DNA of 63,768 nucleotides, filler included, from Collodictyon triciliatum (taxonomy: Eukaryota), in NCBI GenBank assembly GCA_043381765.1. It is 8 parts of 8 records of this genome, joined end to end, with 100 filler letters (N's around TTAATTAATTAA, not from the genome) between each part and the next. Parts side by side here need not be neighbours in the genome. Positions count along the whole stretch, not along the records: positions 34,671 to 52,973 come from JBHJMP010000756.1; 7 more parts are not named here. One strand, given 5' to 3'. The translations under genes and the position numbers were made by a program. Of this stretch, positions 31,075 through 52,859 are shown in pieces. The notes under the pieces are model-generated. The model was not told the DNA's origin, searched no databases, and saw only the letters and a list, made by a program, of their open reading frames with translations. Each line of letters opens with the position of its first letter. Positions within the stretch are counted from its first letter, which is position 1.

Positions 31075-34000
31075 TTATTATTTCGTTTTTTCATTTAATA
31101 TGAAATTTAAATGAAATGTTGAATACTGTCATCTCTGCTGGCTTCCTCAATTATTTTTTTTTTTTAATGTTACAGTGATGATTTATGGGAACTTAAAAAT
31201 GATATCCCTGCTTCTTATTTGATTTGAGAAGAATTAACACACAATTACTTAAACTAACATAGTAATCGAGGGAATTGGTCTGGCAGCTATGGACCCTGGT
31301 GGTATGAGCTTCTCATTAACCTCATATATAAGAAATAGCTTCACTTTCTTTTTGGCAGAAATTTGACAAAAGCAAAAGGAACTAGTGACCCTTACTGTAC
31401 GGTTGACGTTGGGAAGCAAAAGAAGAAAACAAAGGCAATTCAAAAAACTCTAAATCCCATGTGGAATGAAAAATTCGGATTGTATACTTCATATCTTTAA
31501 ATTTCAACAAGATAGCAAATCATTTCATATCTACCAAGTGCTTCTTTCGAAAATCCTGTTGTGTTCTTTCAATTTCGTTCAATACCACACTATTACCCTT
31601 TAGTGACGTGACCCCAGACGCAACAAAAATTATTTTAACGGTTTATGACCAAGATTTTGGTCTTAGTGATGACTTTATCGTGAACTTTTATCCTTTAAAA
31701 CAATATGAAAAATTATTGTGGCAATAAAATAAAAATCAATCAAAACATATACCGCTGTAGAAACATAGTTCACATATTTAATAATTGGCTTATACTTGGT
31801 GTTTATAACATGCCACGCATAATAAAAAAAAATTGCCGTATGGATCAAAGGGAGACGTGCGCATCGATACTCTGGATGTCATCAAGCATAAACGCATGGA
31901 AGTAACAAGAGCTTTGAATCCTCCGGGAAATGGAGAAATTCGATTCTCAATTGAACATGCCCTTACTGCCGTAATTTTCGTCATTTGAAAATAGTATTTT
32001 GATGATTGAAATAGAAAATCATACCTCTTGCTGAAGCGTATACTTAATAATTTAATTGTGTGTATTCAGGATGAGCTTCAGTCGCTTGAAGAGAAAGTAA
32101 ATTTGAGTGCTTTAAGTTCCAAACAAAAAACGACTGGTGCCAAAATTCACATAGGAGGTAGCAGTTTGGAGAAATTTTAGAATGGAATCACCATGCTTTG
32201 CTTCCAATTATGTTTTTTTTTGTGTTGTTTGTGTCGAGGGCTTTTTTAATCCAGATTTAAACAATATGAAGTTGTTGAAGCCCGTAATTTGCTTGCTGCT
32301 GATGATGGAGGTGAGCTATTGCTTGATATGGAAAAAATAATACCTTACTTGGTTTCAAAATCGTCGTATAATAACAAAACAACGACAAAAACAAAACAAA
32401 AACAACATCAACATCAACAACAATAAGAAAAGAAAAGAAAAGAAAAGAAAAGAAAAGAAAAGAAAAGAAAAGAAAAGAAAAGAAAAGAAAAGAAAAGAAA
32501 AAAAAGAAAAAAAAAGAAAAAAAAGAAAAAAAAGAAAAAAGGGCAGATACATGGAACTCAATCTTTTTTAGATTTAAAGTAAATAAATAAAAAGGGACAA
32601 GCGATCCATATTGCAAGATTTCCATCAGCGGGAAAAAAGACCAGAAGACCAAGGTCCTTTACAAACAATTAAATCCTGTATGGGATGAAGTGCTTGTGTT
32701 CGAGTAAGTTTCATTCGAATGTTTATTGACGAGCCAAAAGCATTTAACGAGCCCCCCAGTACTTTTTTTCACTGGATTCATAGATAATTACCACTATTTG
32801 TGTATCATGAGCATTGTTTCTAGAGTCGCAAGCAATATTTCCAACCATGCAATCAACTAATTCATTCTCTTTGATTACATTTTCATCACAACGCCCATCC
32901 TGAAGCGGAATCAACGATGTTACGGGAATTATTCGTGTAGAGGTATATGACCATGACCAATTTACGATGCACGACTTACTCGGGCAGCTCGATATTCCCA
33001 TGCAAGAAATCACAGTAATTATGGATTGAATGTGTCAAAATATATCCATCTTCCTTTTTTAAATCCTCTTACACAGTTTGAAACATAAAATTCTTATTAT
33101 TCTAATAACAAAAACTCTACCAAGATCCCCTCAATCCTCTTATCCCTTTCACTTTTTTCCCATATAGATGGAAGCCGAAGACAAGTGGTACCCACTTAAC
33201 TCAAAATCCAAAGGAGCTCAAGTTACAGGCGAAATTAGACTGCAGACATTCTTTACTTTAGAGGTTTATATTCAAATTGGTTTTTTTTTAAAAAAAAAAT
33301 AGGTTAATGTATCGAGAGCCATAACATACTAAACACGGATAAACTCTATGTAAACCAGAATCTAGACAACCAGTTCATCAGGACTATGAGTATGAAATCC
33401 ACAGGCCCTAATCAGAAAGCAGGAGGGCGACTTCTCGTTGATGGTACTAAATAATCTTGTTTTTTTTTTTTTTGAAATACGATGGGCATAGTGTAATCCA
33501 CTTCCGATATTCAAAGGGATTAATGATAGTGCTATGGTCTCCTTTAGAGTCCGTCACTTCCGAACATTTTAAATAAATTTATTAAAAATGGAAATTTTAC
33601 ATTTATTCTTATCTTAAATATTGCAGTAATAGCCGCAGAGGGGCTTCTAGCAGCTGATTCGAATGGTTTGTATCTATTGATAAAGTATACTAGACTCTTT
33701 TTGAATATTAAACTTTAAAATAGTTTTTGTTGTTATTGTTGTAGATGTTGATATTGCTATTGTTGTTTTTGCAGGCTTCAGTGACCCCTACTGTCTGGTT
33801 TCCTTGGGAAAACAAGGATTCAAGACACCCATTATCAAGAAAAGCCTCAATCCTGTTTGGAACTTTCAAAAAATTATGTAATTAAAACTATTATATGTCA
33901 TATACACACAATTCATTTTGCTACTTTGGAGTTTGACAATCTTGTATGATTGGCATTAAATAATCATTCTTGAAAAATTAGAATGCAAAACTTTAATGGA

Positions 34001-34253
34001 CTTTTTTTTTTAACTGTCTAAGTCTTGTGGGAGGGTTCGCATCATTACTTAATCTTTATTAGCCTAAATATTTTTATTTTTTTATGTATACTCTAATATT
34101 CAAGGGATGTGACCCCTGATGCTAAAGAGCTACACATTAAAGTTATGGATTGGGATGCTATTGGAAGTGCTGACTTTTTGGGCCAGATATCTATTCCGAT
34201 TGAGCCCTTATTCAATGAGATTCCTAGCGATAATTGGTATACGCTCGTTGCAG
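20912..34253 (+). CDS. multi-C2-domain protein with >=11 tandem C2 domains; ~50 exons; both ends missing
   Basis: Repeated C2 signature G-x-L-x-h-x-V-x-x-A-x-x-L-x-x-x-D-x-x-G-x-SDPY...KT-x-x-I-x-K-x-LNP-x-W...D-x-D...DF-h-G. Exons splice in frame throughout except across the gap at 30885-30984. Confidence 0.92.
22561..22806. repeat. (GAAAAGAA)/(GAAAA)-type purine array, intronic
   Basis: Read directly. Confidence 0.9.
26478..26610. repeat. (TTTTTG)n to (TTTTGG)n compound array, intronic
   Basis: Read directly. Confidence 0.9.
28660..28960. repeat. (AACAATAATAAT)n array with gap, intronic
   Basis: Read directly. Confidence 0.9.
30781..31075. repeat. (ATTCCT)n - gap - (ATT)n arrays; the gap probably hides C2 exon(s)
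   Basis: Read directly; the last strand of C2 repeat 8 and the linker to repeat 9 are absent from the visible sequence. Confidence 0.85.
31202..31258 (+). other. probable AT-AC (U12-type) intron
   Basis: Starts ATATCCCT, ends ...CTTAAACTAAC; removal gives [14 protein letters not shown], matching C2 strand 1; contains in-frame stops. Confidence 0.65.
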
Positions 34254-34527
34254 GTGAGTTGAATTAAACCACCCTGAGTCCTTTCAAAGGGATATATTTT
34301 TTACATTAAGTAAATGAATAGTATACAATATATAGTTGTATATCTATGCAGTTGAATATTCGACGATGATTTACCACATGATAAACACTCGGGTCCTAGA
34401 TTTTTTCTTTTTTCTTTTTTTTTTCTTTTTTTTCTTTTTTTTCTTTTTTCTTTTTTCTTTTTTCTTTTTTTCTTTTTTCTTTTTTCTTTTTTCTTTTTTC
34501 TTTTTTCTTTTTTCTTTTTTTCTTTTT

Positions 34528-34670: not shown

Positions 34671-34818
34671 AGAAAAGAAAAGAAAAGAAAAGAAAAGAAA
34701 AGAAAAGAAAAGAAAAGAAAAGAAAAGAAAAGAAAAGAAAAGAAAAGAAAAGAAAAGAAAAGAAAAGAGTTCATTTTCGGGTAAACAACGTATAAAGTCT
34801 TTGTACTTAAATAATTAC

Positions 34819-37287
34819 TATTTTAATAAGAAATCCTCTGAATAATCCGTTTTCAGTCTGCTCTTGTATAATGTTGATAATTTCTTGTGGCCATTCAAGA
34901 AGCAATGCAAGTTCTTGTATATCAAGACAAAATCTATAATTTATATCGAATGAGAAGCTAAAAAAGAACGCTTTTATGACTTTAATTTACTAAAATTGAA
35001 AAGAATATAAAAATAAACAAGTTCTAATAAATCGAAATTACCGAATGGCTTTCTCCCAATCTACAAACAAGAGAATGTGTTCATCTGCCTCCACAAACAC
35101 ACATTTACCATCATGTTTTCCTAGGAGCTTTTAGGCGATATCATGCGATAGTTATGGTATTGAGGAAAACAATATGAATTTTCTCAACATCTTGGCTCAT
35201 TTCTAACATGTTACACATTAATTGATAGAAAAGTGATGTTTTAAAGAAATTTGTACTATAAGGTATTATTTCGATAAAAATCGTCACCTTTCGGATGAAC
35301 TCATTAAATAAAATGACAGATTTTTCCATGGACATGGGCTCTCCTTGCCAGAGGGAGGCGACGTCATCAACACCCAGAGTGACCACCGCCCCTATGCGCT
35401 GCACGACATCCTTTTTTGCTACCATCTATTAATTGTTTATTTTTATCGTTATTGTGGCGTATAATAAAACTGCTGATATTGCAGAGAATTCGAGATAAAA
35501 AATTAAGCTAGTTCTCAAAAGTTTCCAAAAGACATGGAGAACCTGTCGGGCTTGGTCGAGGAAATCAATGAATAAATCTGTTGTTAGTGTCTCTAATCTA
35601 CGCGCGACAGTTTCAAACGTCAAACGGTGATTTGGATTCTGCTCCCAAAGATTCTCAATCAACGCCTTAAATTGCTGGGGGATTCTTTCCGGAATTTCAG
35701 GTCGCAATCTCCCTTGGACAACTTCGAGAGCAATAAAGAATCCTTTATCTAAGTCTTCATACGGTACTTGCTGGGTGATAATTTCCCATAGCACAATACC
35801 GAAGCTGTAAGAATCTGACATTTCTGAGTGATGTAAACCACTAATAATCTCTGGTGCCATCCATGGTAGACTTCCCGTCCATTCCCTTTTGGGTTTGTGT
35901 TTAACAGAAGACAGCCCGAAATCACTATTCAGAAGAAGTTGTTAATGGTGCATAAGTTGAGGTTCAATGGTATTTATTCAGACAACTGAAATCAGATTGA
36001 AATAAAAAAAACAATAAATAAATAAAAATAAAAAGACGAACCATAATTTTAGTGTTTTACTTCGGTCAATCTTCGGAGTTGGGCGCGGCATAAATAAGAC
36101 CAGGGATTAGTAATGATAATATATTGGCTAAAGGGCTATCAAGTGTTGTGGCAGAAATAGAGGATATATAATAATATAAATCATTATAAATGCATTATCA
36201 CAAGAAGATTTGGCGATTTTAAATCCCCATGGATCACTGGAGGTGAGGCAGAATGGAGATATTTCATGCCTGCAAGGAATCGTGATATGCGGTTCAATAA
36301 GAAATAACAAATATCAATATTTTTTTTTAAAAAAAAAAAACAACAACTGTGTAATACATCAGAACATAACTTAGGAAGAGCTGCAGAGGAAAAGAATATA
36401 CCTTTAACCACGTCACGTATGAAAGACAACTTCAACTTCATATGGATATTGCGATGATTTCGAAGATAATTAAATAGAGTCCCCTCACTCATATACTCAC
36501 ACAAAATCGACATATTTGGCTTTTCAATGCAAGTACCCATATACATCGTAATGTTAGGATGACGTAGTTCCCTGCTCGTGTGAAATATATTCATTAATGG
36601 CCCAACCGTGGTTCAAAAATCTAGTCTAAATCGGCTTTTAAAATGTACATAGACATTGTAGTTTTTGAGTATAGGATAGTTTTCTTACACTAAAACACAC
36701 ACTTCATCCAGAAGCTGCTCTAACCCATCATTTTCGATATCTTGATTATGAAGCCTTTTCACTGCTATTTCCGTCCCCTTCCAGACGGCACGGTATACCT
36801 ATTTTATGATAAAATTGGTTTTCATATAGATTCTTTTTCTTTTTCTTTTTCTTTCAACAAATCGAACAAATGCACATTAATTGTGTATGCTTTGGTAGAG
36901 GTGAATATGTGTGTGTATATATTGTGATACATCTCCAAAACTCCCAGAGCCGATGAACTCATGTAATTCTAAAGTATCGAACTCGACAACAGTGTAGTGT
37001 TTGATATAGTTCTCCTGAGGCACAACTTTGTTTCTTCTCTTTTTCTTATAGACACAAGCTGCTATGAAAAACAATATTATAACTCCAGCAGAGGCGGAAA
37101 CGGCTCCCACTAAAAAGGAGTACCCTGTTTATTTTGAATTTAGTGACATTTTGTGACCCTTTAAGGTCCAAAAATAATAACGCAGACAAATTTTCAATGG
37201 TAAATGGTACACCTTTGTATTCGTCAAATGCAGAGGGCAACTAGGCAAGTTCCATTTTAGGGTGTAATAAAAATGATTGACTCAGTA

Positions 37288-37383
<96 letters not shown>

Positions 37384-40300
37384 TTTCCTCAGAGGGTTAA
37401 TCAACAGTAAATCTTACATCTGGGCATGATTTGCAAGAAAGCAACTCGTCCGAAAAACACTTGTTTGTTGGGCAGCCACAGTTTTCGTTGCTATTAGAAT
37501 TGCTTGAAATTTGGCAATCTATGATATGTAAATAAGTATGTCTGGTCATGCAATTAGAGACTTTGTAAACTAAAATTATTCGAATTGAAATATATCAATC
37601 TTTCGAAAATATAATTCAGTATCAATAGAAAGGGCTATTTAATTAAATTTTGTATGGCCATAGTAATTATTCCATATTTTATATGTGTCGATTCCATCAA
37701 TAACTCATTATTATGTATAGAAATAGTTTACATAGTTGAGTAATTATTATCATGCTTCCAATTATCATTTGAATGGGGGAAAAAAGGGCAATATTGAACA
37801 ATAGTTACTGGTATATCTGATTTCAAATCCTGAGGAAGACGCCTGAAATCCAGAATCTCTCTGCACTAACAATTGGACAACACATATCATACTTTGGCTT
37901 CTGATCAGTCCACTTCGGCCGTTGCCAGAAAGCATTATTATTTCATTGGCCCCGGTAGTGGCGGTCAATACAACCCGAAGCCTAGAGTTAAATCGCGGTT
38001 ATAGACTCTATATTTTAGAATATGACACGGAGTTGTAAATTGATACCTGTCTCCTCGTCTCAGCTTATATTCAACTATTAAATTTGAAGAGTTTCGAATT
38101 TCCCATGTGCAATTTGCAACTGTGGAGTAACCACTTCCAAAACTTCCATCTCCAAATGACATGATTTTTTCAGAACCGTACAGAATGGTCGGCGAGTTGC
38201 TGTTGCAAAAAGCTATGTGATACAAAAAAAAATCATTATTATTATTTTGCATTTTAGATTGCCTGCTTCGTGAGTGACACACTTATAGGATATCACATAC
38301 CAGGAAAATACTCAAAGTAGTTGTTTGTCTCTACTCTCGGCTTCATAGGGAAAAACACGAGTAATCCGTTGGAAAAGTAATTTGGAACAAATGTAGAATT
38401 CAATCCAACATATTGGTCATTCTGAAATTTAATCCAAACATCGAAGCCTTCCAAAAAATAAAATAGAAAATGAAAAAGGAAAAAGGAAAAAGGAAAAAGG
38501 AAAAGAAAGGAATTAAAAGATTTAATACCCGTTTTTTAAGAACATATTTTCTAATTTTTAAAACTATAACAACAATCCTGAATTATACAGATATCATTCA
38601 GAGGTACCTGTGTTATAGTACCATAATTCGTAGTATTCTTTGGTGGATATATGCAGCTGAACATAAACGACAATTCCTTTCTTAAAGGGGATGAGAGAAA
38701 TAATCGAAAAGCTGCTCCAAACCATAGGAATGTCACGTTTAAACCAATCTCGAGTTTCTATGTTGATGTACGTAGTATTATGTTAAAGTGAGATGACAGA
38801 CTATACTTCTAAGTATTTAACCACGACTTTGAATCGAATAAAGGGAAAAAAGTATTTAACCACGAAAAGAAGTAAAGAACAATTGATATGCAATTAAAAA
38901 TGGGTAGCACAGTCTTGTACAAAGTAATTATATAATTAATAAATTGATGCTATTAAACATGAGTGCGACGCTATAAAGGACATGCAGGAAAGTAGATAAA
39001 AAATATTATGAAATTACCTATGCCATATCCATATAAACTTAGATTGGGGGTTCCATCGAGATGTTTTCCGCCAATTACATATACTGTACCCGAAAACTCA
39101 ACAGCAACTCCAGCGTAGATGCATGGCTTATTAATGACATGGTATATGTATTATAGAAAAGAATCATATTTGTTCCTTTTTTTTTTTCCATCGAATTAAT
39201 TCAAAAAAAAAAGAGTGTACACATATCTTTTATAGTTAAAAAAAAAATTCTTACAGGACTATTGCTAGCATGATAAACTGTTATTGAACTTTCTGTAAAG
39301 CCAAAAAATACAACAAGAGATGGATCCATGGGAAGTGAAGTTGTGGGCTTCATGTATTGAGAATAGTTGAGGACATATCCAACAAGTTACATATTGGTCT
39401 TTGATATAATAACATAACGCAGAGGATTACCTTTCCTCCCCAAAAAAAGATAAAATCCTTCAGTGTACAAGTAATTACGTTGTTTCTTCGAAATATATAT
39501 GATAGATTGGACGGTAGTTGGAAAAAGGATGGCTGCCAACGAATTTCGTCTAACCCTATAGCGGTGCGATACTTAATGAATTCAATATTCAAAATTAATA
39601 AAGGGGGAAACTTTTTCTACTCCAATAGTTGATGGGAATGAATAAAAGAGACATGATTCCAAAAAAAAAATCATAATAATATGAAAGCTGAGTGTATTGT
39701 CAGGCCATGATTGGTAGACTACGGAAGGGGAATAGAGGGAATTTGGTTGTATATGCCTGTATTTAAAACCCAGAGCAATGGGGTCTGAGATGATTTCAGG
39801 ACTCCGAATATGAAAATATCTGGAAAGTGCTGGTACAGTTGATAGACGAATGTGGAGTCCAAAATCAAACTGGATGCTTGTTCATTTAACACTTTAGACC
39901 AAAGTCCCGTATCTAAAATGTTTGCATTAAAAAAAGTATGTGTATTCATGGGTAGGTCGCATCATTTTTTCTTCAAAGGTAGATACCATAGATTTCCTTT
40001 CATAATTATCATATTTTACCAAATAAATAAATATAATGATAAAAGTGGATAGTTAAATAGTGCCCTCCAAAACCTTTGTTGTATATCCAAATATCATCAA
40101 GTTCTGCTTCTGGTTGGTTGGTATATCCCCCCAAAATACAAACATGAGTGGAATTCTCATATGTCTTCGGTCTCACCCTCGATGATGGAAATATTGTATT
40201 TGGAAAAGATATCCAACCATTATTATCTAAAAGGAATAATCACATCAAATAACAAAAATGAAAGGCAAAAGTGTATTCAATTACAGAATGAACTGTTCGT

Positions 40301-43300
40301 ACTATTATCCGAACAATACCATTGATGGTGTTTAGAATGTGTATATACCTGCTCCCCATACCCATATGTTAGTGCTCAAGATGCCCCTCTTTGTCTCACT
40401 CGGTCCCATCATGAATCCGATAATATCAGACAAATTAATGGCCAGCCCTCCATATTGCATCGGAGGTATATAAATCTTGTCCAGATAATTCTTCCTTGGT
40501 ATTATCGACATGAGCATTGTTTCTATTCCATAATAATGACGATAATGAACAAACTAAGAAAGATATATTGAAAGCCTGCTTAAGGGAAAACATGTATTGT
40601 GCAAAAAGAAAAAGTCTCCCGAACCCGTGTCCAATATAAGCATATCGTCCATAGGGTTCTCTTGGATTTTCCCCCCGTAAATATATATTTTATTTTTAAA
40701 CTGTGTGAATGTAGCCCCCATGCGATTGGATATGCATGATAAAAAATGAGGGCAGCATCCATTCGCAATTGACATACTGTCCTTTGTGAAGTATTTTCCA
40801 TCTGAGATGGACATATTTTCTTAATGGAAGTGGAAAAAAAAAGTGGGCTACAATTTTATTTTATTTTTTTGCTGAACATTCATGAAGGACTCACCAAAGG
40901 AAAACAGCCAAATTTGGTTCGAAGGCTCATAATTATTTATCCCTCCAATAAAGAGCCATTTATTGATTTTCAATCCATGACTGGGATAAGAAATGTATGG
41001 AAAAGATGTATCGGCGAATCTCTGCATTTCAGTAGCATCTATAATCGAAAGTTGATCATATTGTTAATTGTTTGGGTGAAACCACCATTTTATAAATTAA
41101 AAGCAAGAACTATTCTAAGTAACTGAATATTCAAGCCATGTATAGCCTAGTATCAAGCTGCAATATTATTACTTTTTGATAGGCGAATCATATCATTAAC
41201 AATCCTTCCGTACTCCTATTATACAACATAATAGCAATAATACTAAGAAATCAAATAATCCTAATTTCCAAAAAAAAAAAATTATCTCACATCAACACCT
41301 CCAAAAACCCATATGGATGAGTCATGCGCCACACAACTATGTCCGACCAATTCATTTGGAAAGTTGATTGTGGGAGTCCAATATAACGCTTGGCTGTGGA
41401 GTTTGTATATGACATTGTCATGCCGATTTTCTGTGCTACCGCCAATCATGATTATATTCGGTTCTGCATAAACCAGACAAAATCCAAATCTTCCAATCGG
41501 GACATGCCCGATGGCATATTTACTTGTCCAACCGATACCTGCCATAAAAAATATTAGTATATTTGTAACTATTATTGCATGCTTTCTAATTTGGAATATA
41601 ACAGACCTAGAATAGAAAAGTGAATTGACATCGGCAAAAGTAAAGGGGGTTAACCACCAGGCTTCACATACAAAAAAGAAAAGAAAAGAAAAGAAAAGAA
41701 AAGAAAAGAAAAGAAAAGAAAAGAAAAGAAAAGAAAAGAAAAGAAAAGAAATGAAGTATATTACTTGTTAATATGTATATTATGTCCATTCGATTGAATA
41801 AAGGTTGATTTTCGTTTGGCGTCTGGAGTCCTCCAAGAAGTAAAGCCTCGTTTGATATAGATATAGAACCTCCGAAAAATATTGGTGGGGGATTTCCGTT
41901 GAAGTAAAGTGCATGCGACTCTATATCCCTTAAAGGATCTTTTGTTTTGTCCAATTACACGATCAATTACATAGTTTAATAGTATTTTCTTCAATTTTTA
42001 AAAAAATATGGGTAAAGATAAAGAACCTTTAGCTTGAGTCGGTGAACAACTTTCCTATTTTTTATTTCGTAGTAAGTTACTTAAGAATAATAAAAATAAT
42101 AAAAAATAATAATAATTATAAATCACTATGTCCTTGCTGATTTCTCTCAATAAATAAGTAAACATAGTCTTATTAGAAAAAAGTGGCACAACTTTTACGT
42201 CATTAAGTGGATCTTGAATCCATCCTGTCCTACATGGGATACAATCTCCCAAGTAGTTGACGAAATGGTCAACTGGACACTCGCATGTAATGTTGAGAAT
42301 GTATCCAAGAGGACAATCTATGTTCGTGTAAGCGAGTTATAATATTTCGGCATAAAGTTAAGCCATAAATCGATAATTATTTATCTTAAATTTTGCTGGG
42401 AGGGGGTTATATGAAATACATTAGGCTACCAATAAGATCTATTTGAAAGCCTTCCTCGGTATTTGCATCTGATGGGACATTCAACTTGACGTAAAATTTT
42501 CTTTCTGGACTTTGAATATATTGAACATCTCTATTCATGTCCATCATTTTCTGGAGAAAAAAAATGAAGTAATGGAAAGGATGCGAAATATAAAGTTAGC
42601 CATGATACTTGTGACCCAAAACTTAGATGAATTTTAAGTTCTTTTCTTTACTTGATTGATTAATTTATAGACATACCCATTCGATGCAATCGATATCAGA
42701 CGATCTTTGCAGTTCGTTACAGCATTTACCCACACCAAAATATATTCTTGACTTGGAAAGGTGAAGGAGAGTCATCTATGTTAAGGTGCACTTTGTACTT
42801 TATTGATACATTTGCAGTTTTTCTCTCTCTCTTTTGTCTCTTTTTTTTTCTTTCGAGGCGGAGGAGGAGAGAGTCTATGTGTCTGCATGTACTATTTATG
42901 CCATAGGATGTATAATATACCTTAAAGCTATTCGCTCCGCTCACCTCCCATGTACAAACTGACCCTGGTATCATTTTGAAATTTCCGCTACCATCATCAA
43001 AGCTTCTATTTTCTGGAAAAAATACTGTCGCATATTCCTGACAGAAAGCTGTATAAATTTTGTAAATTTAATTTGTCCAATAGTTCGAATTGCTTATTAC
43101 TTTCTATTATTATCTATGACTTTCTATGACTTTTCTATTCTATTCTATTCTATTCTATTCTATTCTATTCTATTCTATTCTGTTCTGTTCTGTTCTATTC
43201 TGTTCTATTCTGTTCTATTCTGTTCTATTCTGTTCTATTCTGTTCTATTCTGTTCTATTCTGTTCTATTCTGTTCTATTCTATTCTATTCTATTCTATTC

Positions 43301-46300
43301 TATTCTATTCTATTCTATTCTATTCTATTCTATTCTATTCTATTCTATTCTATTCTATTCTATTCTATTCTATTCTATTCTATTCTATTCTATTCTATNN
43401 NNNNNNNNNNNNNNNNNNNNNNNNNNNNNNNNNNNNNNNNNNNNNNNNNNNNNNNNNNNNNNNNNNNNNNNNNNNNNNNNNNNNNNNNNNNNNNNNNNGT
43501 TGTGTTTTGTTTTGTTTTGTTTTGTTTTGTTTTGTTTTGTTTTGTTTTGTAACAAACTTTCCTATTTCTAATTCTTATGTTAACTTCATTTTGCGTACAA
43601 TAAAATTACCTAGATCCATTCGGTAGATATGGGGTATATAGGCAAAATAACCATTGAATTGACGTATGCCATCAACCAGGTACAAACTATTACCTCGCAA
43701 GAATGATGTTGTAAAATACGTGGAATTCATATTACTATGTACATGGATATCCGGGCATAACTTGGTGCCTAATACAGAAAAGCAACCAATTTTTACATGA
43801 GAACGCGCATCGAGATTTTCATAACACTGTTAAGAAACATATAAATAAGTTTTTCTAAACATGAATGATTCAATCGAGATGACAAAGCCAAAATATTACT
43901 TAGGTTGCATATGGCCATGACATTTGGTTGTATATTGAAATTAGATGGGCCATAAATAAACAGATATTCTAGGTATGTTACGGATGCAATTTGTGAATTA
44001 GGTATATTCTGGTCTCGTAAAATCAGGTCCCATGAATAGGCGTCTGCAAGAAGGAATGATTAAAATCGAGACATTATCGTCCAGGCGGTCAGGTAATATC
44101 AAAAAAATTGCTTCGAACAACTCAAATAAATCGACAAAAGGAATAAGCGGATTAATAAGAGTTGTTAACAAATACCTTTATTGTAGCACCATAAAGTTGG
44201 CATAAATAATTGGCCAGATAGCCCAAGAATGCAATAAGAATTTTGAATGATTACAGATTTGTAACTGTTTGATGGTGGCCATGGGATAGGGACTGTTGAT
44301 GACTCCCAAGATCTTTTCGTCAAGGACAACTTGTATAACGAGCGACTAATAGTTTCACTTTTGTTAAGAGCACTTCCCGCGCTGTATATATACAAGGTAT
44401 CGTCGTGTTGAGAAAAGGACCCCAGGTACAGCGTAGCTGGTGAATCATTTCGAATTGGATATATGCTTAATCTTTTCCACGCCATCATATCTGGATATTA
44501 ATTTAATTCAGAAATATGTATAGAGCGCATGGACGCGTATGCTACTTTACTAATTTCAGTTGTAAATTGTCCCCGAATATATATACATTCGGGGATAGTA
44601 AATGGTGTGCCCTCGCATTTAAACTTTAAGAATAATGCGATGTCAATTAAAAATATTATTAGACGAAATTCGGAATTATATATCTTATTAGAGAAAAGGA
44701 TAAAAATGAAATTTGTCAATCTAAAAGAAATATACTTAAATCGAAGGCATATATAATCTCCGAAGTGATAGGAGTGTTTTCGGCAGTCCCACCAATTACA
44801 TATATAGTGCCTTCATAGAATCCCATATACTATCAGTTTTATAAAGTCTAAATTAGTTTTTGTTTTTGGTGTTGTTTTTGGTGTCCTTTATGGAGAATTT
44901 GTTTTTGTTTTTTCATCATCTATTTAAATGTTTATTTGTTTATTTATTCTATTAGTAGTACGGTTTGTTTGCATGAATAATCGATTGGTTATTTATTAAT
45001 TTAATTATATTCATAAATATAGGTTTCGTTAATAGTATTAAGAGAATATATTCTCCAATTACTAACCGGTCGAATCAATATTGGAGGGCTTTCGCTGTTG
45101 CTTTGTAAATCAGCGTTGTGGTTGCTGAGTAACTCCCAATTTTGGCGTACTTAAGGGGAATCATGAATCAAATACCAAATTTGTCGTTAGTTGAAGATAT
45201 AGTAATTGTTCTCAAACGTCGTGATAGAACTTCATTATATAAGGAACTTTCTTTTTTATAAAGTCTTGAAATTTATACCAAAGCTAAATCGCCATAATTC
45301 ATTTGTTGGCATCAAAATCCCGTGACATTTTTTACCACCGAATATAAACAAAGAATCATCAGATCTGGCAAATGAATGCTGCATTCTTGGAAGAGGGTTG
45401 TATCTCGATGATGAATAGACCCATTTTTTCGAATCTGGTAGGGGAAAAAAGGATAATTTTGAGTCTCAAACATTTGCAAGAAATTTTAAATGTATGTGTT
45501 TGCTGGTCGTAGTATACATACAAATTTATTCATATTTTTAAGGCCGAACATGCTTGAGAACTACCTAAGAAAAACTCCCATATTGATGAGTCAGCACAAA
45601 TACCGGTCCACGAACCGATAAAGACGACACTCTTTTTCAAGTATAAAAGACTAGAGTATCTCTTCATGGGAGGATATTCATAAAAACTTAAACCAGAGTA
45701 GTCGAAGGAATATGTTTTCGAATAATTCACTGAGAAACTCTCTGTCAGTTATGTAAATCAATTAAGGGAGTCAATTATATTATAAAACCCAAGATAATAA
45801 TAATCATGTATAATAAGTTTTCGAATCATCAAACACAGTAAGAAGAAAGAAAGAGAATATATCGAATATCTTTTAATACCTAGATTAATTTCTATTAAGA
45901 AAGTTGGAGATCCATTGCCCATGGTGGGTTCTTTTTGAGCCCCATAACCAATCAGACTATCGCCCATTTTCAAGGTGATAAGTTGGTTGATTGAGAAGGT
46001 GACGTTCATTATATTATTCCACGTAATATTTTGTGTGGACCAAATCTTCTTTTCTATTTTAAAAGATTAAATAAGATGTAAAAAAAAAAAATTGCAAAAG
46101 AGCTATTTCTATGCTACCAAATAAAAAAACTGTGGACAACAAGGAGCGAAGGATATATCAATTTGTAAGGTCACAAATTTCCAGAGTATGCTTACGGAAT
46201 ATATATACATCGAAGAAATAGCCTCCTGGTGTCTTTCTTGGCGTGGATAAGAAGAAATTATTATTGTAAATAAATCCAGAATCAAATTCGGAATACAGTA

Positions 46301-47929
46301 TGGGATTCTGAGGAGTTGATATCGACCAAGTTGTTGAATCTAATATTGGTTTCGTGGTATTTTTCTCAGATATTGATTATTTTTTTTTATTCTTCCTTTC
46401 AACTTTTGTGCAGGACCGAGGGGGGGTGTTTTCTCAGATATTGATATAGAGAATACTGTATAATGAACGTATATTCTTTCTTTTCCACGAAAATATTGAT
46501 ATGAATTACCTAAGCTGTATGCATAAAATTCATTTCTGCGAACTCCTTGGCCATCTATGCCTCCATGAATGTATAGACTACGATTCAGAAAGAAGCATCT
46601 TGGATGGTACAAAGATGGGGGCCCAGGTTTTTTAAATGTGATGCGTTTCCAGTCCAAGTTCAATAGATTTAACGAGAAAAGGGAATTGTCTGCCATAACC
46701 TTAGAACCTTTGTCATCAACTACTCCGGCGAAGTAGGGGTCACTTACATAACCACCGAATAAAAAAACCTAATTATATTGTCTTGAATAAATTATCGGTT
46801 TCGATAGCTAAATAACATTATCTTTTCAAATTAGTTGGAGGAGTGCAGGGTAATTATTCCGGAAAACTCTAAAGTATGAATGGACATTCGTATTGAAGAT
46901 AAGGTAGAGTGGTGAGGAAAAATTTTACTGATTCATCCAGCAAAGATATACAATATGAGTTCCTCAGATCAGGAAAATCCCCAGTTAATCTTAATATGGA
47001 CCACTTCATGTTTTCTGTGAAGAAAATATTTATGAATGAAAATAAATTGCCGTCTAAATATCTTCAACTTTCTGCAAAAAAAAAAAAAAAATGGTGGGGA
47101 TACTCAAGAATAATTTAAGTTTCTCGGTTTCTGTCTTTTGATAATAAGATAATATTTTGAAAATAAATGAAAAATGGCATACCAATGTCAAATGATGTAT
47201 GTATATAATCAATAACCCCACTGGATTCAGGGAGAAAATATGTGCTCCTTGAATAATAGTGATGGAGGTAAGGTATGTAATGTGTCAGTTATACTACATA
47301 ATTGAAGGGCCTCTTTCAAATAAAACTGACTTTAATATGGAATGCAGAGGGGAAATATGCAAAACAAAAAATGAAGGGAATTGTAAAATGATGAGAGAAT
47401 ATGAAGGGTGCAAAGTAGAGGAGAAAAAGAGAAGATAAAAAGGAAAATAGAAATAACTACATACTTATCAGGCAGTTGATACAGTGTTTCGTTCCATGTG
47501 AATGCTTTTCCTAATATATACGATGGCAAAACAGGGCCTGTTATATGGAGCCCGGCAAGTTTTACAGAACATTGTCCTAGTGAGGATTTTCATTACAAAC
47601 AACATAAATTGTAGTACATGAATAATGACCGAGATAATGGGCGGGTCAAAACTCGCTGTTATGAACTAGTATAGTGTTGAAAGGATATGCACCATACGTG
47701 GTGATTCTATTTTCATATTATTAGGCTAAATTCTATATACATTGGAGTTCTTTTTTACACCATATATGTGCGTTAGCCTATGTCGATTTCGGTGCCAGTA
47801 AAGACCAAGGAAAACAAAGGGAAAACAAAAGGAAAATAAATATATGTAAATACCCAATTCAGTTTGCATAATAACCAGGATATGCACAAAAAAGAACCGG
47901 GCTTGAATCGAAGTTGGAAATCGGTTCAT
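34819..47929 (-). CDS. single-pass receptor: [Kelch repeats - CUB-like - Cys-rich]x2 - TM - TKL Ser/Thr kinase - class III cyclase-homology domain; 3' truncated
   Basis: ATG 47929 with a short hydrophobic leader; Kelch blades (VFLFGG, LYIHGG, LFIFGG, IWVFGG, IYIYGG); CUB-like DGSG...CTWEV (~43049-42430) and DGSFG...NCTWEI (~38212-37810); TM AVSASAGVIILFFIAACVY-KKKRR (~37110-37040); kinase GSGSFG, AVK, HGDLKSPN, DFG, GSLPWMAPE, SDSYSFGIVLWE; cyclase-like SLWQ-EP-SM...FN-FIR, FC-DIQ-L-LLEWP...LFRGF. Confidence 0.9.
37288..37383. repeat. (AAT)n microsatellite, intronic
   Basis: Read directly. Confidence 0.95.
43134..43550. repeat. (TATTC/TGTTC)n - gap - (TTTTG)n arrays, intronic
   Basis: Read directly. 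Confidence 0.92.
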
Positions 47930-49106
47930 CGGGAAAAGATCCTTTACACCAGGAAGGACTGATATCTGGTAAGCACAGACAACACCTCACTTCTTCTAGC
48001 CAGAATTTATCTTTGATTCTAAGTAGTGTTTTCAACATATCAGAAAAGAAAAGAATGTAGCTTGCAAAGAGGAAATATCCAGTATGAAAGCCCTTACATT
48101 TACAAAATGTTTGTGTCGAGACGGTTNNNNNCTCTTTTTCTTCTTTTTCTTCTTTTTCTTCTTTTTCTTCTTTTTCTTCTTTTTCTTCTTTTTCTTCTTT
48201 TTCTTCTTTTTCTTCTTTTTCTTCTTTTTCTTNNNNNNNNNNNNNNNNNNNNNNNNNNNNNNNNNNNNNNNNNNNNNNNNNNNNNNNNNNNNNNNNNNNN
48301 NNNNNNNNNNNNNNNNNNNNNNNNNNNNNNNNNNNNNNNNNNNNNTCTTTTTTCTTTTTTCTTTTTTCTTTTTTCTTTTTTCTTTTTTCTTTTTTCTTTT
48401 TTCTTTTTTCTTTTTTCTTTTTTCTTTTTTCTTTTTTCTTTTATCTCGATCTCTCCTTCTATGCCGCGCTCGCCTTCGGTGGTGATCAGCAGCCGGACGA
48501 CAGATAATGTTTTTGCGGGCATCCTCACCACGAAGCACAAACGCATGCTTTGGGGTTCGAACCAGGATGCCAACCACAAAGGCATCTCGCCACTGCCCAC
48601 AGCGACAGGTTTCGCTCACAAGGGTTGTCTTATGTCAAGTTTCTATTTGCGGAATTTACCGAAATTTAGAAAAAAATTCATCCAACCTCTGGAAAGTATC
48701 AATGGTGGTTATCTTGTTGCGTGGCCCAGCGCGAAGAGAGTCTCTCCCAGGGACATACCTGTGTGGTTGGGTTGCTTGCTCTCTGGCACGCAGTCCTTCT
48801 TTGCCCTTTATTCGACTCAAAGGACACGCGGCTTGGTACATCGTTTCGGTCCAACCTCACGGAAGACAGCTCAGTTCCAATCATCTAAAGGAAAAATGAG
48901 CCTCGCTACCAAAGCCCTCCACGAACTGAAACGCCCGTACTTGGATTTTTTTTCCTCTTTTCTTCCCCATTCTACCACATAGCCGAAGGAGTCTTATCGG
49001 CAGCACACAATATATTTTCATCAGCTGCAGGCTCTGAACTGACTCTCGACAGAAACGCAAGTTGGTAGGATCCACACACGTTTGACATAATACGGAGGAA
49101 CGAGTC

Positions 49107-51069
49107 ATGAGCAAAGAGAAAGGAAAGGCGAAGGCTACAAAAGGGGCGAAGGCTTCAGCAAGCGGTGATCAAGAGGGTAGCAAACACATTCCCCTCTTGT
49201 TTTTCTTTTCAGTTTTTCCTCTGTTTCCTTACTACTTTATGTAACTACCACTCGTTTCATTGCCCCTTTTTATGCCTCTTTTCTTTGGTCGATTCTAACC
49301 GCCTCCTCCTTACTATTAGACACACAGTTGATTCTCAACTACATCAACACACAAAACCGACCTTTCAATTATCTCATGATATTCTCGAACCTACATCAAA
49401 AAGTGGCAAAGACGCAAACACAAAAGATCCTTGATACGCTCGTAGCTAGTGGTCGGATAGCTTCTAAAGAAAATGGAAAAGCCGTTGTTTACTATGCCAG
49501 ACAAGTATGTACCACTGCTGTTGTTTTCTTTTTCTTTCTTTTCCAAAATTCCTTTGATGTGTCTGCTCTTCCATCTTTAAATAGTGGGCTATATCATTTG
49601 TTGATTACTCTTCCTAATAAATTTTACTGTGTCGTATTGCTTTTTGTATGATGTGTGTACTAGCAAAAAAAAAAAAAAAAAGTACATTTGCATAAGCAAC
49701 CTCTCAAGCATTTATCTTACCATAGTATTTTTATGCAATCAGGACCAGTTTCCCATTCCTGATAAGGCCGAATTAGCTGAGATGGACACCCAAGCCAAAG
49801 CGTTGAGCACACGCTTACAAGAAGTCGCTGCCGAGAATAAGCAGCTTGGAACGGGTTATTTTCCCATATATATTTACAATATAATAATGTGTTTAAGAGT
49901 CTCAATTGCATATAATCTATTTATATACTTATCTTTTAATTGAAAATATCAAAGTGTGTAAAGTAGACCCATAATGCTGTTATTGAGTCTAATTTCTTTC
50001 AAATCATGTCGAAATTGTATATTATTTTTAATAGACTATTTATCGTTTCAGAATTACAGAGACTTGAATCGGCTCTTACCGACGAAGAGATAGAAGCGAG
50101 GATCAAAGAACTACAAGCAGAGGTTACAATCATGCAACCATATCGCACCACCAATTTTTTTCTTGGTTCCTTTACTTGATATCTCTACAAGACTTTGCAA
50201 GTTCCTCATTATCATATTAGCATTCTGTATGCGATTAAAAATAACTCATGTCCAAGAAAAACGTTCCCTTCTAAATTGCATTTTAGAAGCGCAAACTTCA
50301 AGAGCGTCTTGAGAGATTAGGTGATGGTTCTAATCTAATCACAGAGCCTGAAAAAAAAAGAGTAGATGCATCATTCAAATCTGGAATGGTATTGTCCCTA
50401 GCTTGTAAACAAAAGAGAACGAATTATGTCACACATGTGTTTTACTTCAGTACAGATATAAATATATGTTAAGGAAAAATCCACTACTTATATTTTGAAT
50501 ATAATACACACAGCTTGAATGGAAGAAAAGGAAGAAGCTTGTAAGAAAAAAATCATTCCAGAACGCTTCATATGTCAATTCTTTTGCAGTAGATATTTAT
50601 CTTTCTGATATTGAGGTCTACTATACAGCATAACATTTTTATGTTAATGAATGTCGTATTATGTCACAGACCGAGGACATTTTATCTACTCTGTCTGAGG
50701 GATTTGAAAAGAAACCATCAGAAGTTCGGGTAAAAAGAAAAGTTGCATACAAACACTCTACAGTCCAAGATGTATACGTATATATCAGCTGCCAACAATA
50801 ATGTGTCTTAGAGGCATCATAATCATGATTTTCTATCTGATTGAAATTTCTTTCTTTTCTTTTTTATTTTATTTTTAGCTCTCTCGCATCTTCACCTACT
50901 CACACCTAATCGAGAGAGAGAAATTGAAACAATAAACTAACGCAATGAGTCTCTTATAATGTAGGAAATGTTGGGAATCGACACAGACGAGGCTGCAAAC
51001 GTAAGTGTCGATCAGGTCATGGCCAGCATTACCGGAGATAGTGGCCCAGTGTCAAAGAAACCTCGCTGA
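49107..51069 (+). CDS. HOP2: Homologous-pairing protein 2 (HOP2/TBPIP/PSMC3IP), 8 exons, complete
   Basis: ILNYINTQNRPFN...IFSNL...KILDTL...GRIASKENGKAVVYYARQDQF (winged helix), coiled coil, EWKKRKK, EMLGIDTDE; ends TGA at 51069. Confidence 0.92.
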
Positions 51070-51254
51070 TGAGGCAATGGAGAGAGGGATGGGGAAAAAA
51101 ACCGCCTTTGTTTTGTCTTGATGTGAAAATTCTAAGGTCTTGAAATTTTATTAAGCTAGCAAAATAAAGATATTTAGAAAACACATGGCTATGTACCAAA
51201 CTTCCCACAGTTTAGAGACCAGGATGAAGACGTCAACGTTTGAGCAAACGAAAA

Positions 51255-52799
51255 TCACTGGGAATCGAAAACAAATGATAGGGAGTGGTAAATGTGTAGG
51301 ATGCTTGTAGCGATGTGAACAAATATTAGTGTAGGAGCGGAAAGAAAGGCAAAAAAACTTCTATTCAGGGTAGAAACCCAGAGAACATGCATGTCATATT
51401 TGTAGACCATCAACAAAATCCTCCTGGTTATTCCATACTGGACCAGAGCGATAACCCCGCTGCTGAAGGAAAATGTGATTCCGATGATGAATTCTTCATA
51501 TCTCAGGTTGTCGGATGTGACAAATGCGTCGTGGTTGTAACCATAGAAAACATACGTGCAAAGGAATACCGAACATAAGGAGGCGTTCATCCTTACGAAA
51601 AAGCTCATGGCGCAGTTTGTGAGGGAAAACTTTCTGTCTGACTTGGTGCGGATAGTGAGAAGGTTTCCCATCGTTTCTTCTTTGAAAAGCGGTATTTTAT
51701 TTAGGGTGCGGATTAGGATGCTTCTGCCTTTGTTTGAGTCTACCAAGGGCACAAAAGCCAGGCTGAAACTTTCGAATAGCAAATAAACAACTAGTGTGGA
51801 CGAGTTCAGAACCCTTGGAGAGACGATTGATATGTAGCACTGTAGTATAAACTCAAAGAAATAGTTTGTAAGCAGGATACAAATGGCGGCTGTGCGTTCA
51901 TCGGCTAAGCGAGGCGCCACCCTTCTAATTTGCAGTCTTGTGATAAACTTCATGACGGTCAGAAAGGATTGAAATCCAAAGACAATCAATATTTGCCTGT
52001 CGGCTGGTGACTTGTAAATCCCAATCATGAAAGGTATCTCTGTCATGGTGGCAGAGAATAAAAGGAGCCAAATCTGAACAAATATGATGCATCCCTCGAT
52101 GATAGTGCGTTTGCCCAGATCGACGAGAATAAAATGGAGGTACAATCCTAGAAGAGCCGGGGAAATCAATATAATACTAACGGAACCAAGCACAGTGCCA
52201 TAAAATGGAATGGGAAATATGTCTAGAGCCACCATGAGAGATAGAATACATATCATGCCAACCCAGAAAGTCACAGAAACAGACACAAACCAAAGCAAAA
52301 GTTTTCTTGTCAGGACTTTGGTATCCGGATACTTTTCCCAGAGGTTTAAGATGATGGCAACCAAACAGCATTGATAGAGCATCGTCGCTGGTACCTCAAA
52401 CGCAATGTTTGCAGCAAAAAGCCAGTATGCTCTGTTAAACAATCCCATTTCATTTATGCGGTCCAAAGGGATAGAGAAGATGAGATACAATGTGAGAATT
52501 GAACAGATGTTGAATTTCAGGAATGTCCATGTCCCTGAAAGATTCCTCGTGAAGAAGCTGTGTTTCGCATCGGCATCTTGGCAGTAGCTCTGGACCTCAA
52601 CATTGAAGTTTGTTTCGTTTTGATGGGGGTCGTCCTTGATTTGTGCCTCTGGGTCTAAAGGGATGCACCTGGTATTATTTTCCTGGTCTGAAGCAGGGGC
52701 AACTGAACACAGCGTGTTCTCCATAACTTCCCCACTAAGTACAGTCGGACTAAAAGGCTTCTCACCGGGGAAATTGTGAACTATGGTCACTTTAAACAT
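51255..52799 (-). CDS. multipass (~8-10 TM) membrane protein of unknown family, one uninterrupted 514-codon ORF
   Basis: Long non-repetitive ORF with alternating hydrophobic segments. A TTCTTCTGTAG acceptor lies ~12 nt upstream of the ATG, so an upstream exon may be missing. Confidence 0.8.
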   Translation of the reverse strand: MFKVTIVHNFPGEKPFSPTVLSGEVMENTLCSVAPASDQENNTRCIPLDPEAQIKDDPHQNETNFNVEVQSYCQDADAKHSFFTRNLSGTWTFLKFNICSILTLYLIFSIPLDRINEMGLFNRAYWLFAANIAFEVPATMLYQCCLVAIILNLWEKYPDTKVLTRKLLLWFVSVSVTFWVGMICILSLMVALDIFPIPFYGTVLGSVSIILISPALLGLYLHFILVDLGKRTIIEGCIIFVQIWLLLFSATMTEIPFMIGIYKSPADRQILIVFGFQSFLTVMKFITRLQIRRVAPRLADERTAAICILLTNYFFEFILQCYISIVSPRVLNSSTLVVYLLFESFSLAFVPLVDSNKGRSILIRTLNKIPLFKEETMGNLLTIRTKSDRKFSLTNCAMSFFVRMNASLCSVFLCTYVFYGYNHDAFVTSDNLRYEEFIIGITFSFSSGVIALVQYGITRRILLMVYKYDMHVLWVSTLNRSFFAFLSAPTLIFVHIATSILHIYHSLSFVFDSQ

Positions 52800-52859
52800 T
52801 TCCTGGGGACTACAGAAGAAAAAATTGTTTGAATCTTTGGATAAAATTACTCTTAGTTT

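What the first reader, a model, noticed from the sequence alone, without database searches (positions are those of the whole stretch)
34819..47929. Receptor with duplicated Kelch-CUB-Cys ectodomain, TKL kinase and nucleotide-cyclase-homology domain
Seen: the spliced product is leader - Kelch blades - CUB-like - Cys-rich - Kelch blades - CUB-like - Cys-rich - TM - kinase - cyclase-like. Established: CUB+Kelch ectodomains occur in attractin/MEGF8, which lack a kinase; TM-kinase-cyclase(-kinase) cytoplasmic modules are known from Acanthamoeba and Mimiviridae receptors. Inference: this fusion may define an uncharacterised protist surface-sensing receptor family. A second kinase could follow beyond the contig end.
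Basis: partly seen in the sequence, partly recalled or inferred. Interest (0 to 1): 0.72.

Follow-up and report, generated by a model that had tools for sequence, protein, structure and literature searches.

The report
Kelch-CUB receptor kinase with dead cyclase
This is one intact, spliced protist gene for a very large cell-surface receptor: a doubled Kelch-CUB outer part, then two protein kinases around a cyclase domain that has lost its catalytic residues but is conserved in a second species; it is an undescribed-looking variant of a receptor family known from amoebae and giant viruses.

Summary
Forty-five minus-strand exons give an open frame: signal peptide, (Kelch block, CUB, Cys-rich) twice, one transmembrane helix, TKL kinase, cyclase-homology domain. 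A spliced contig from run X1 confirms five introns and runs past the contig end; its overhang maps uniquely to G000:C63, which supplies the rest of the cyclase domain and a second kinase (55 exons, about 2,500 aa). The gene therefore belongs to the published 'cyclase kinase' (kinase-cyclase-kinase) receptors. Its cyclase keeps only 2 of 6 catalytic residues and kinase 1 is non-RD. A full-length Diphylleia rotans orthologue shares both traits, and the dead cyclase (45% identity) is better conserved than the ectodomain (26-38%). The family is large: 45 of 70 fetched paralog loci show CUB plus kinase, and only 16 of 59 readable cyclases are intact. Most likely it is a ligand-gated Ser/Thr kinase receptor whose cyclase fold serves as a dimer or allosteric hinge and makes no cAMP. 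The ligand is unknown. This scan had already noted the same family on other pieces of this genome.

The parts
47854..47929 (-). Exon 1: start codon at 47929 and probable signal peptide (aa 1 to about 27)
   Evidence: the orthologue also has an N-terminal hydrophobic stretch (2.02); no signal-peptide predictor was run
43610..47576 (-). Exons 2-14: first Kelch block (aa about 28-694), about 12 blades, the first and last degenerate
   Evidence: Pfam Kelch/ATRN-LZTR1 hits; 10 conserved GG columns; two more blade-like motifs read by eye in the consensus
42430..43048 (-). Exons 15-17: CUB-like domain 1 (aa 695-802)
   Evidence: aligns to CUB 2 (z=5.0); family-level CUB fold; no Pfam hit on these exons
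42027..42317 (-). Exons 18-19: Cys-rich module 1 (six family-conserved Cys), ending in a 28-nt micro-exon
   Evidence: the orthologue-guided alignment skips the micro-exon, so that exon is less sure
38301..41938 (-). Exons 20-32: second Kelch block (aa 852-1488), 12 blades
   Evidence: Pfam; 12 conserved GG columns
37809..38212 (-). Exons 33-34: CUB-like domain 2 (aa 1489-1601)
   Evidence: the profile of this exon and 37 related exons retrieves CUB proteins (10 of 14 hits carry PF00431); fold of a paralog copy
37213..37518 (-). Exons 35-36: Cys-rich module 2 and a second 28-nt micro-exon
   Evidence: the exon-36 donor is used in X1 record 3
37040..37109 (-). Single transmembrane helix (aa about 1645-1665) at the start of exon 37, followed by a basic stop-transfer cluster
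   Evidence: hydropathy; acceptor at 37109 from X1
35579..36975 (-). Exons 37-42: kinase 1, TKL type; catalytic Lys, Asp and DFG kept; non-RD (HGD)
   Evidence: PF07714 E 3e-20 on exon 42; motifs; introns 40-42 spliced in X1
34819..35425 (-). Exons 43-45: first half of a degenerate class III cyclase domain (first metal Asp is Gly1975, base Lys is Phe2014, second metal Asp2018 kept)
   Evidence: spliced in X1 and X2
34671..34818 (-). Intron 45, broken by a 5-nt microsatellite at the contig end. The gene continues off-window on G000:C63:130-3047 (+): 10 exons with the rest of the cyclase domain (Asn is His2096, Arg is Tyr2100), a linker, kinase 2 (HRD, DFG, APE intact) and the stop codon
   Evidence: X1 loose end; 1 exact match in the genome; exon model; the same 10 introns come out of the orthologue-guided alignment

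Best explanation
A type I membrane receptor of the 'cyclase kinase' family that signals by protein phosphorylation and not by cAMP. Shown from sequence: a signal peptide, two tandem units of about 12 Kelch blades + CUB + Cys-rich module, one TM helix, kinase 1, a cyclase fold and kinase 2, in one intact, spliced gene. Shown: both kinases keep their catalytic residues and carry the Ser/Thr-type HxDLKxxN loop; the cyclase has lost one metal Asp, the base Lys and the Asn/Arg pair, so it can supply neither half of a class III active site. Inferred: the Kelch propellers and CUB domains bind a surface or secreted ligand (a glycan or protein of prey, partner or substratum). Inferred: binding changes the arrangement of a receptor dimer held by the dead cyclase domains, which brings the four kinase domains together. 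Inferred: the non-RD kinase 1 acts first or allosterically, and the canonical RD kinase 2 phosphorylates downstream targets.
For: Intact 55-exon frame; five introns and the cross-contig link seen in a spliced contig of X1. The D. rotans orthologue P0374 is one complete 2,486-aa ORF, sister to this gene at SH-aLRT 99, with the same HGD loop and the same losses (S,F,D,Q,Q,Y against G,F,D,D,H,Y; canonical D,K,D,D,N,R). Identity to the orthologue: kinase 1 58%, kinase 2 66%, cyclase fold 45%, linkers 23-32%, ectodomain parts 26-38%, so the dead domain is under constraint. The gene lies in a 47-row clade (SH-aLRT 97) in which no row has both metal aspartates. Roles of the six residues and the two-subunit active site: PMC6005667, Table 1 and passages.
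Against: No activity, ligand, location or dimer was measured or modelled. No RNA contig bridges ectodomain and kinase for this gene: cover is missing over most of exons 37-39 and the exon 36-37 joint has only 28 letters on each side. The CUB fold was shown on a paralog, not on this copy. Constraint on the cyclase fold fits a heterodimer role or plain folding needs equally well. The tree is a quick one (SH-aLRT only) on columns from my own spliced alignments.
Confidence: 0.6

Rival explanations
1. The receptor is a modulator of cAMP signalling: its dead cyclase pairs with an active-cyclase paralog and, lacking both half-sites, shuts that paralog's cAMP output in a ligand-dependent way; its kinases may also phosphorylate the partner.
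For: Active and dead copies sit side by side in both species: 16 of 59 genome loci and 3 of 33 EukProt rows keep all six residues. Some rows keep only one half-site, including the orthologous pair C1217/P0179 that lost only the first Asp, which hints at heterodimers. Class III sites are built from two subunits (PMC6005667).
Against: This cyclase fold is only 23% identical to an active paralog (C844), so the interfaces may no longer fit. Dead copies outnumber active ones about 3 to 1, which suits independent receptors better than dedicated brakes.
Confidence: 0.23
2. The ectodomain works as in attractin/MEGF8, as an adhesion or trafficking adaptor that captures other membrane proteins; the kinases are a secondary output.
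For: Same domain types (CUB, Kelch propellers); the Pfam ATRN/LZTR1 propeller model hits several exons; MEGF8 and ATRN act on other receptors (PMC5792066).
Against: MEGF8 has a short tail; here the tail is about 830 aa with two intact kinases, the best-conserved parts of the protein. No PSI, EGF or lectin model hits the orthologue at E<=1. The ATRN/LZTR1 model scores below the KLHDC2-type Kelch model on the orthologue.
Confidence: 0.08
3. The cyclase domain is still an active adenylyl or guanylyl cyclase that uses non-canonical residues.
For: The fold is conserved (45% to the orthologue); the second metal Asp is kept; the papers count all family members as nucleotidyl cyclases.
Against: 4 of 6 residues are lost here and 5 of 6 in the orthologue, and the replacements differ at three sites. 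Pfam PF00211 does not hit the orthologue at E<=1.
Confidence: 0.05
4. The model is an artefact: two neighbouring genes (a secreted Kelch-CUB protein and a kinase), a wrong join to C63, or a decaying copy.
For: No single RNA contig spans the gene; one X1 contig retains intron 36, where read-through would stop before the membrane helix; the C63 join rests on 28 matched letters.
Against: No stop in 2,500 codons; the orthologue is a single ORF that aligns end to end at 35.5%; the 28 letters match once in 75 Mb; the first four C63 exons sum to 330 nt against a 329-nt overhang plus one shared base; 29 of 29 contigs holding both marker exons have them on one strand 3.5-7.5 kb apart.
Confidence: 0.04

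Closest known systems
'Cyclase kinases': receptor nucleotidyl cyclases flanked by two Ser/Thr kinases of Acanthamoeba castellanii (66-67 genes), Physarum polycephalum (43) and amoeba-infecting giant viruses (PMC4053784, PMC4758236, PMC5804921; passages read)
   Same: Ectodomain, one TM helix, kinase, cyclase domain, kinase; large gene-family expansion; 33-39% identity over the inner module between family member P0314 and the Acanthamoeba and viral proteins that align over its whole length.
   Different: Ectodomain of two Kelch-CUB-Cys units (about 1,620 aa); the Acanthamoeba and viral hits carry PF12849, PF02872 or PF13458 and none lists Kelch. Found outside Amoebozoa, in D. rotans and this genome. 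Cyclase dead and kinase 1 non-RD in this copy.
Diphylleia rotans Kelch-CUB kinase-cyclase-kinase proteins in EukProt (unnamed Trinity ORFs); orthologue P0374 = EP00002_Diphylleia_rotans_P024177
   Same: Same architecture as single ORFs of about 2,500 aa; P0374 shares the HGD loop and the dead cyclase.
   Different: Only 35.5% identical overall; these are raw predictions that none of my paper searches found described.
Attractin / MEGF8 (PMC5792066, passages read; fuller domain order recalled, not from a call)
   Same: Single-pass type I protein with CUB domains and Kelch propellers outside.
   Different: Short tail acting with an E3 ligase, against a tail of about 830 aa with two kinases; no PSI, EGF or lectin hit in the orthologue; here CUB follows the Kelch block, and each block has about 12 blades.
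Non-RD receptor kinases of plant innate immunity such as EFR (PMC8463890; search listing and start of abstract only)
   Same: Membrane-proximal kinase lacks the Arg of the HRD loop.
   Different: Different kinase family and ectodomain; non-RD is rare in this family (79 of 98 rows are HRD, 2 are HGD), so it is a trait of this orthologue pair and no sign of an immune role.

Membership tests
Cyclase kinases (receptor kinase-cyclase-kinase) | Extracellular domain separated by a single TM helix from the inner part | tested here: met
   One strong hydrophobic segment plus an N-terminal leader in the model and the orthologue
Cyclase kinases (receptor kinase-cyclase-kinase) | Class III cyclase-homology domain | tested here: met
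   HMM of 64 non-family cyclases: 65 bits, E 3e-22, shuffles at most 3.2 bits; Pfam alone misses it
Cyclase kinases (receptor kinase-cyclase-kinase) | Two Ser/Thr-type kinase domains flanking the cyclase domain | tested here: met
   Kinase 1 in the window, kinase 2 on G000:C63
Cyclase kinases (receptor kinase-cyclase-kinase) | Common descent of the inner module with the Acanthamoeba and viral proteins | tested here: inconclusive
   Full-length homology, but the quick kinase tree leaves the Kelch clades and the amoebozoan/viral clade in an open fork, with no non-family kinases as outgroup
Active class III adenylyl cyclase | Two metal-binding Asp residues | tested here: not met
   Gly1975 in place of the first; Asp2018 kept
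Active class III adenylyl cyclase | Base-specifying Lys and Asp/Thr | tested here: not met
   Phe2014 in place of Lys; Asp2089 aligns to the second site, Gln in the orthologue
Active class III adenylyl cyclase | Asn and Arg pair | tested here: not met
   His2096 and Tyr2100
Active class III adenylyl cyclase | cAMP or cGMP formation | not testable with these tools
   needs an enzyme assay
CUB domain | CUB beta-sandwich fold of about 110 residues | tested here: met
   On paralog G000:C360 with a family alignment: pLDDT 85.8, VIA Z 13.3, rmsd 1.9 A over 99 residues; family member P0135 passes the Pfam CUB cut-off (27.8 against 21.4 bits). This gene's own spliced CUB was not folded
Kelch beta-propeller | Repeats with GG motif and downstream Trp | tested here: met
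   Pfam; conserved GG and W columns
Kelch beta-propeller | Closure into six-bladed propellers (two per unit) | not tested
   Both folding jobs went to the CUB domain; two propellers per unit is inferred from 12 blades
Attractin/MEGF8 | CUB plus Kelch ectodomain on a single-pass protein | tested here: met
Attractin/MEGF8 | EGF (and, recalled, PSI) modules in the ectodomain | tested here: inconclusive
   No EGF or PSI model hits the orthologue at E<=1; one paralog's Cys-rich module gives a sub-threshold EGF_MSP1 hit (E 0.005)
Attractin/MEGF8 | Short cytoplasmic tail without enzyme domains | tested here: not met
   Tail of about 830 aa with two kinases
Receptor tyrosine kinase | Tyr-kinase catalytic loop (HRDLAARN or HRDLRAAN type; motif recalled) | tested here: not met
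   Both kinases have HxDLKxxN

The most novel reading that the evidence does not exclude
The family is a combinatorial receptor repertoire in a deep-branching phagotrophic lineage: some 60 or more Kelch-CUB receptors pair through their cyclase folds, and the mix of active, half-site and dead copies decides whether a given prey or partner ligand yields cAMP, phosphorylation only, or a brake on cAMP. This gene would be an old, dedicated 'kinase-only' or braking subunit.
Probability: 0.15. Interest if true: 0.75.

Novelty: new variant of a known kind. Interest (0 to 1): 0.45.

Why it matters
It extends the kinase-cyclase-kinase receptors beyond Amoebozoa and their viruses to the Diphylleia lineage, with an outer part that pairs Kelch propellers and CUB domains as animal attractin/MEGF8 do. 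It also shows that counting these genes as 'nucleotidyl cyclases' can mislead: 43 of 59 readable copies in this genome lack at least one catalytic residue, and this gene's dead cyclase has been kept in two species. That makes a conserved pseudo-cyclase in a receptor directly testable. It changes no textbook mechanism, and no ligand or phenotype is known.

Tried and rejected
Pfam on single exons found no CUB or cyclase domain; the exons are too short and divergent. BLAST self-search showed no internal repeat. A first mixed alignment of CUB half-exons misplaced the second halves and was not used. Single-sequence AlphaFold of the paralog CUB failed (pLDDT 34). The PDB profile search gave only weak CUB hits (3 rows, E 0.011-0.034). 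P0180 first looked like the orthologue; trees did not support it and P0374 replaced it. Fetching 20 candidate contigs did not identify the 3' end by alignment alone; the RNA overhang did. The tree held a frameshifted kinase 2 from a coordinate slip and was redone; the careful bootstrap search did not finish. The protein atlas gave no result. Paper searches for the architecture or for a description in Diphylleia gave nothing relevant: 2 unrelated papers; 0; only the Physarum paper; 0. PMC2447327 held none of the terms sought. Supplements that may bear on novelty were not seen: Figure S3.3.1 of PMC4053784 (only a spreadsheet was held) and Figure S16 of PMC4758236 (not searchable); both show cyclase domain architectures. 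By my alignment 0 of 21 Acanthamoeba-type and viral rows keep all six residues, but the register near the second Asp may be off by one, so I do not rest a claim on it. No Physarum protein appeared among the 120 rows, so its ectodomains are untested.
Full report
Observation. The window is a chain of contigs; places 34671-52973 are G000:C756. Reading the minus strand in three frames gave 45 exons from 47929 to 34819 with 43 GT-AG introns and one GC-AG intron and no stop in 2,075 codons. Pfam on 41 exons hit Kelch or ATRN/LZTR1 propeller models at E<0.01 in 6 exons and kinase models in 3, and found neither CUB nor cyclase. The two ectodomain units are too far apart for BLAST, but CUB+Cys of unit 1 aligns to unit 2 with z=6.7 and 0 of 200 shuffles reach that score. 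Eleven of 16 introns match in place (within 8 codons) and phase between the units, against a random mean of 2.7; that control is lenient, because blade spacing itself makes intron positions periodic. A family alignment shows 10 conserved GG columns in unit 1 and 12 in unit 2, and the consensus shows two more blade-like motifs in unit 1 by eye, so each unit has about 12 blades. Two propellers per unit is inference.

Expression and the missing end. Three coded runs were laid on 34790-37262. Their RNA status is the tool's guess, but the contigs are spliced. One 1,114-nt contig of X1 lies on exons 40-45 without a mismatch, confirms five introns, and runs on for 329 nt. X2 confirms two of these joints; X3 gave nothing. 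The overhang's first letters match once in the 75-Mb genome, at G000:C63:133-160. C63 gives ten more exons with proper splice sites, the rest of the cyclase domain, a linker, a second kinase and a stop: 55 exons and about 2,500 aa in all. The first four C63 exons add up to 330 nt, which fits the overhang; the loose-end table itself gives a length of 255, and only 28 letters were matched directly. X1 also moves the exon-37 acceptor to 37109, and a second X1 contig keeps intron 36 unspliced. No contig bridges ectodomain and kinase in this gene, and exons 1-35 were not tested against RNA.

Family. Marker exons found 62 (Kelch) and 64 (CUB) matches in the own genome; all 29 contigs that hold both the Kelch exon and a kinase-1 exon have them on one strand 3.5-7.5 kb apart. 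All 10 long loci fetched show Kelch, kinase and a second kinase; spliced alignment recovered both ectodomain units in 8 of these 10, and only the second in 2. Of 70 paralog loci aligned, many cut by contig ends, 45 show CUB plus kinase 1 and 32 show CUB and both kinases. Three pairs are about 95% identical or more and may be alleles or recent copies. A profile of the CUB exon against 1.84 billion proteins returned, among bacterial-type repeat proteins, long Kelch-kinase proteins. All 27 Kelch-bearing ones that I looked up are Trinity ORFs of Diphylleia rotans; 10 more of the 28 Kelch rows were not looked up. Several genes pair one to one between the two species, so the family diversified before they split. 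That the window's organism is a relative of Diphylleia is inference from these pairs.

CUB and cyclase identity. A paralog on G000:C360 carries its CUB in one exon. It gives a sub-threshold Pfam CUB hit (E 0.045). Folded with 23 family rows it reached pLDDT 85.8; Foldseek ranked the C1r CUB2 domain first (E 2.8e-5) and the wide VIA search ranked the GPR126 CUB first (Z 13.3, rmsd 1.9 A, 99 residues), followed by neuropilin, TSG-6, cubilin and Kremen. Family member P0135 passes the Pfam CUB cut-off. The CUB label for this gene thus rests on family homology. The cyclase label was tested on this gene's own model: a profile of 64 non-family class III cyclases scores 65 bits on residues 1972-2161, and 500 shuffles reach at most 3.2.

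Catalytic state. Class III cyclases need two metal aspartates from one subunit and a base-reading Lys and Asp plus an Asn and Arg from the other (PMC6005667, Table 1 and passages). This gene has Gly, Phe, Asp, Asp, His, Tyr at those six sites, so it can give neither half. Both kinases keep the catalytic Lys, Asp and DFG; kinase 1 has HGD in place of HRD, a form seen in 2 of 98 family rows. The other row is P0374 of D. rotans, sister to this gene at SH-aLRT 99, with Ser, Phe, Asp, Gln, Gln, Tyr at the cyclase sites. It is the best BLAST hit of the full model among all fetched proteins and aligns end to end at 35.5%; 37 of 44 window introns and all 10 introns towards and on C63 come out the same when it guides the alignment. 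Identity by part is 58% and 66% for the kinases, 45% for the cyclase fold, 23-32% for linkers and 26-38% for the Kelch, CUB and Cys parts. Across the genome 16 of 59 loci with all six sites readable are intact and 17 keep both aspartates; 3 of 33 EukProt rows are intact (26 of the 33 were looked up as D. rotans). In the kinase-only tree of 117 rows (9 short or duplicate rows and rows with too little kinase 1 left out), this gene lies in a clade of 47 rows (SH-aLRT 97) in which none keeps both aspartates; intact copies lie in other clades and in the m51a1 proteins, which I recall as Mastigamoeba. One old loss followed by expansion is the simplest reading; the tree is quick and midpoint-rooted.

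How it most likely works. The anatomy is that of a type I receptor. I infer that the Kelch propellers and CUB domains bind an outside ligand; PMC5792066 links such modules to adhesion and sugar binding. Because cyclase domains of this class form their site between two subunits, and this one is conserved but cannot catalyse, it most likely holds or gates the receptor dimer and couples the two kinases, so that the output is Ser/Thr phosphorylation (0.6). The main rival is pairing with an active paralog to damp cAMP (0.23).

Comparison with what is known. PMC4053784 describes 67 Acanthamoeba nucleotidyl cyclases with an extracellular domain, one helix and a cyclase flanked by two Ser/Thr kinases, also present in giant viruses. 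PMC4758236 counts 43 such 'cyclase kinases' in Physarum, and PMC5804921 finds none in Protostelium aurantium. I read passages of these three, not the whole texts; 'kelch' occurs in none of the main texts, and their supplementary architecture figures were not available. The Acanthamoeba and viral homologues list phosphate-binding, 5'-nucleotidase or periplasmic-binding domains and no Kelch. The gene meets the structural tests of that family, fails those of an active cyclase, and fails the short-tail test of attractin/MEGF8. Searches found no description of the Kelch-CUB form, of the family in Diphylleia, or of its dead cyclases; the library lacks most subscription papers.

Verdict. A real, intact gene; a new variant of a known kind. 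Earlier notes of this scan report the same family on other pieces of this genome; they are not independent support. Interest 0.45.

Noticed in passing
window 37110-37212 (intron 36): One X1 contig keeps this intron (depth 7.6) while another splices it (depth 6.2). Read-through stops 64 codons after the start of exon 36, before a membrane helix can be made: a soluble ectodomain form, or just unfinished RNA. One sample only.
   Followed up: partly
G000:C1217 (L027-L028) and P0179; also C9058, P0323; C892, P0330, P0333, P0336: Half-site cyclases: some copies keep Lys, Asn and Arg but lost a metal Asp, others keep both Asp but lost Lys or Asn/Arg. C1217 and its D. rotans orthologue both lost only the first Asp, which hints at complementary heterodimers.
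   Followed up: partly
L033-L057 and related loci (for example G000:C906, C3743, C2035): A large dead-cyclase subclade shares the same replacements (mostly Arg, Gln, Glu at the first three sites); mean identity in the cyclase fold is 41% against 23% in the linker (24 loci).
   Followed up: partly
G000:C32, C2078, C2692, C2912, C1935, C7477 (L064, L061, L063, L062, L066, L034): A small, fast-evolving group has lost the catalytic Asp and DFG of kinase 1 as well as the cyclase residues: pseudokinase and pseudo-cyclase receptors, with counterparts in D. rotans.
   Followed up: partly
L055:291-2760 (G000:C1884): A paralog whose ectodomain part lacks the family's introns (CUB to TM in one 231-codon stretch) and lies in several frames, while its kinase part keeps introns: a partly processed, probably broken copy.
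   Followed up: partly
P0331 (D. rotans): A cyclase kinase listing a Cu/Zn-SOD-type domain (PF00080) and no Kelch nests beside Kelch member P0318, which suggests ectodomain swapping within the family.
   Followed up: no
P0351, P0388, P0404, P0409 and viral rows: The Acanthamoeba and giant-virus cyclase kinases sampled also look non-canonical at the cyclase sites (0 of 21 keep all six in my alignment), although the papers count them as cyclases; the alignment register needs checking.
   Followed up: partly
window 49100-51070 (+): The gene facing away from the receptor, about 1.2 kb upstream, encodes a TBPIP/Hop2 protein (PF07106, E 5e-18).
   Followed up: partly
window 51255-52892 (-): A 545-codon stop-free frame with several hydrophobic stretches and no Pfam hit at E<=0.1.
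   Followed up: no
window 30100-34260 (+): On the neighbouring contig, a gene with several C2-like exons (one tested: PF00168, E 6e-8); it is separated from the receptor by an assembly linker and is not a true neighbour.
   Followed up: no
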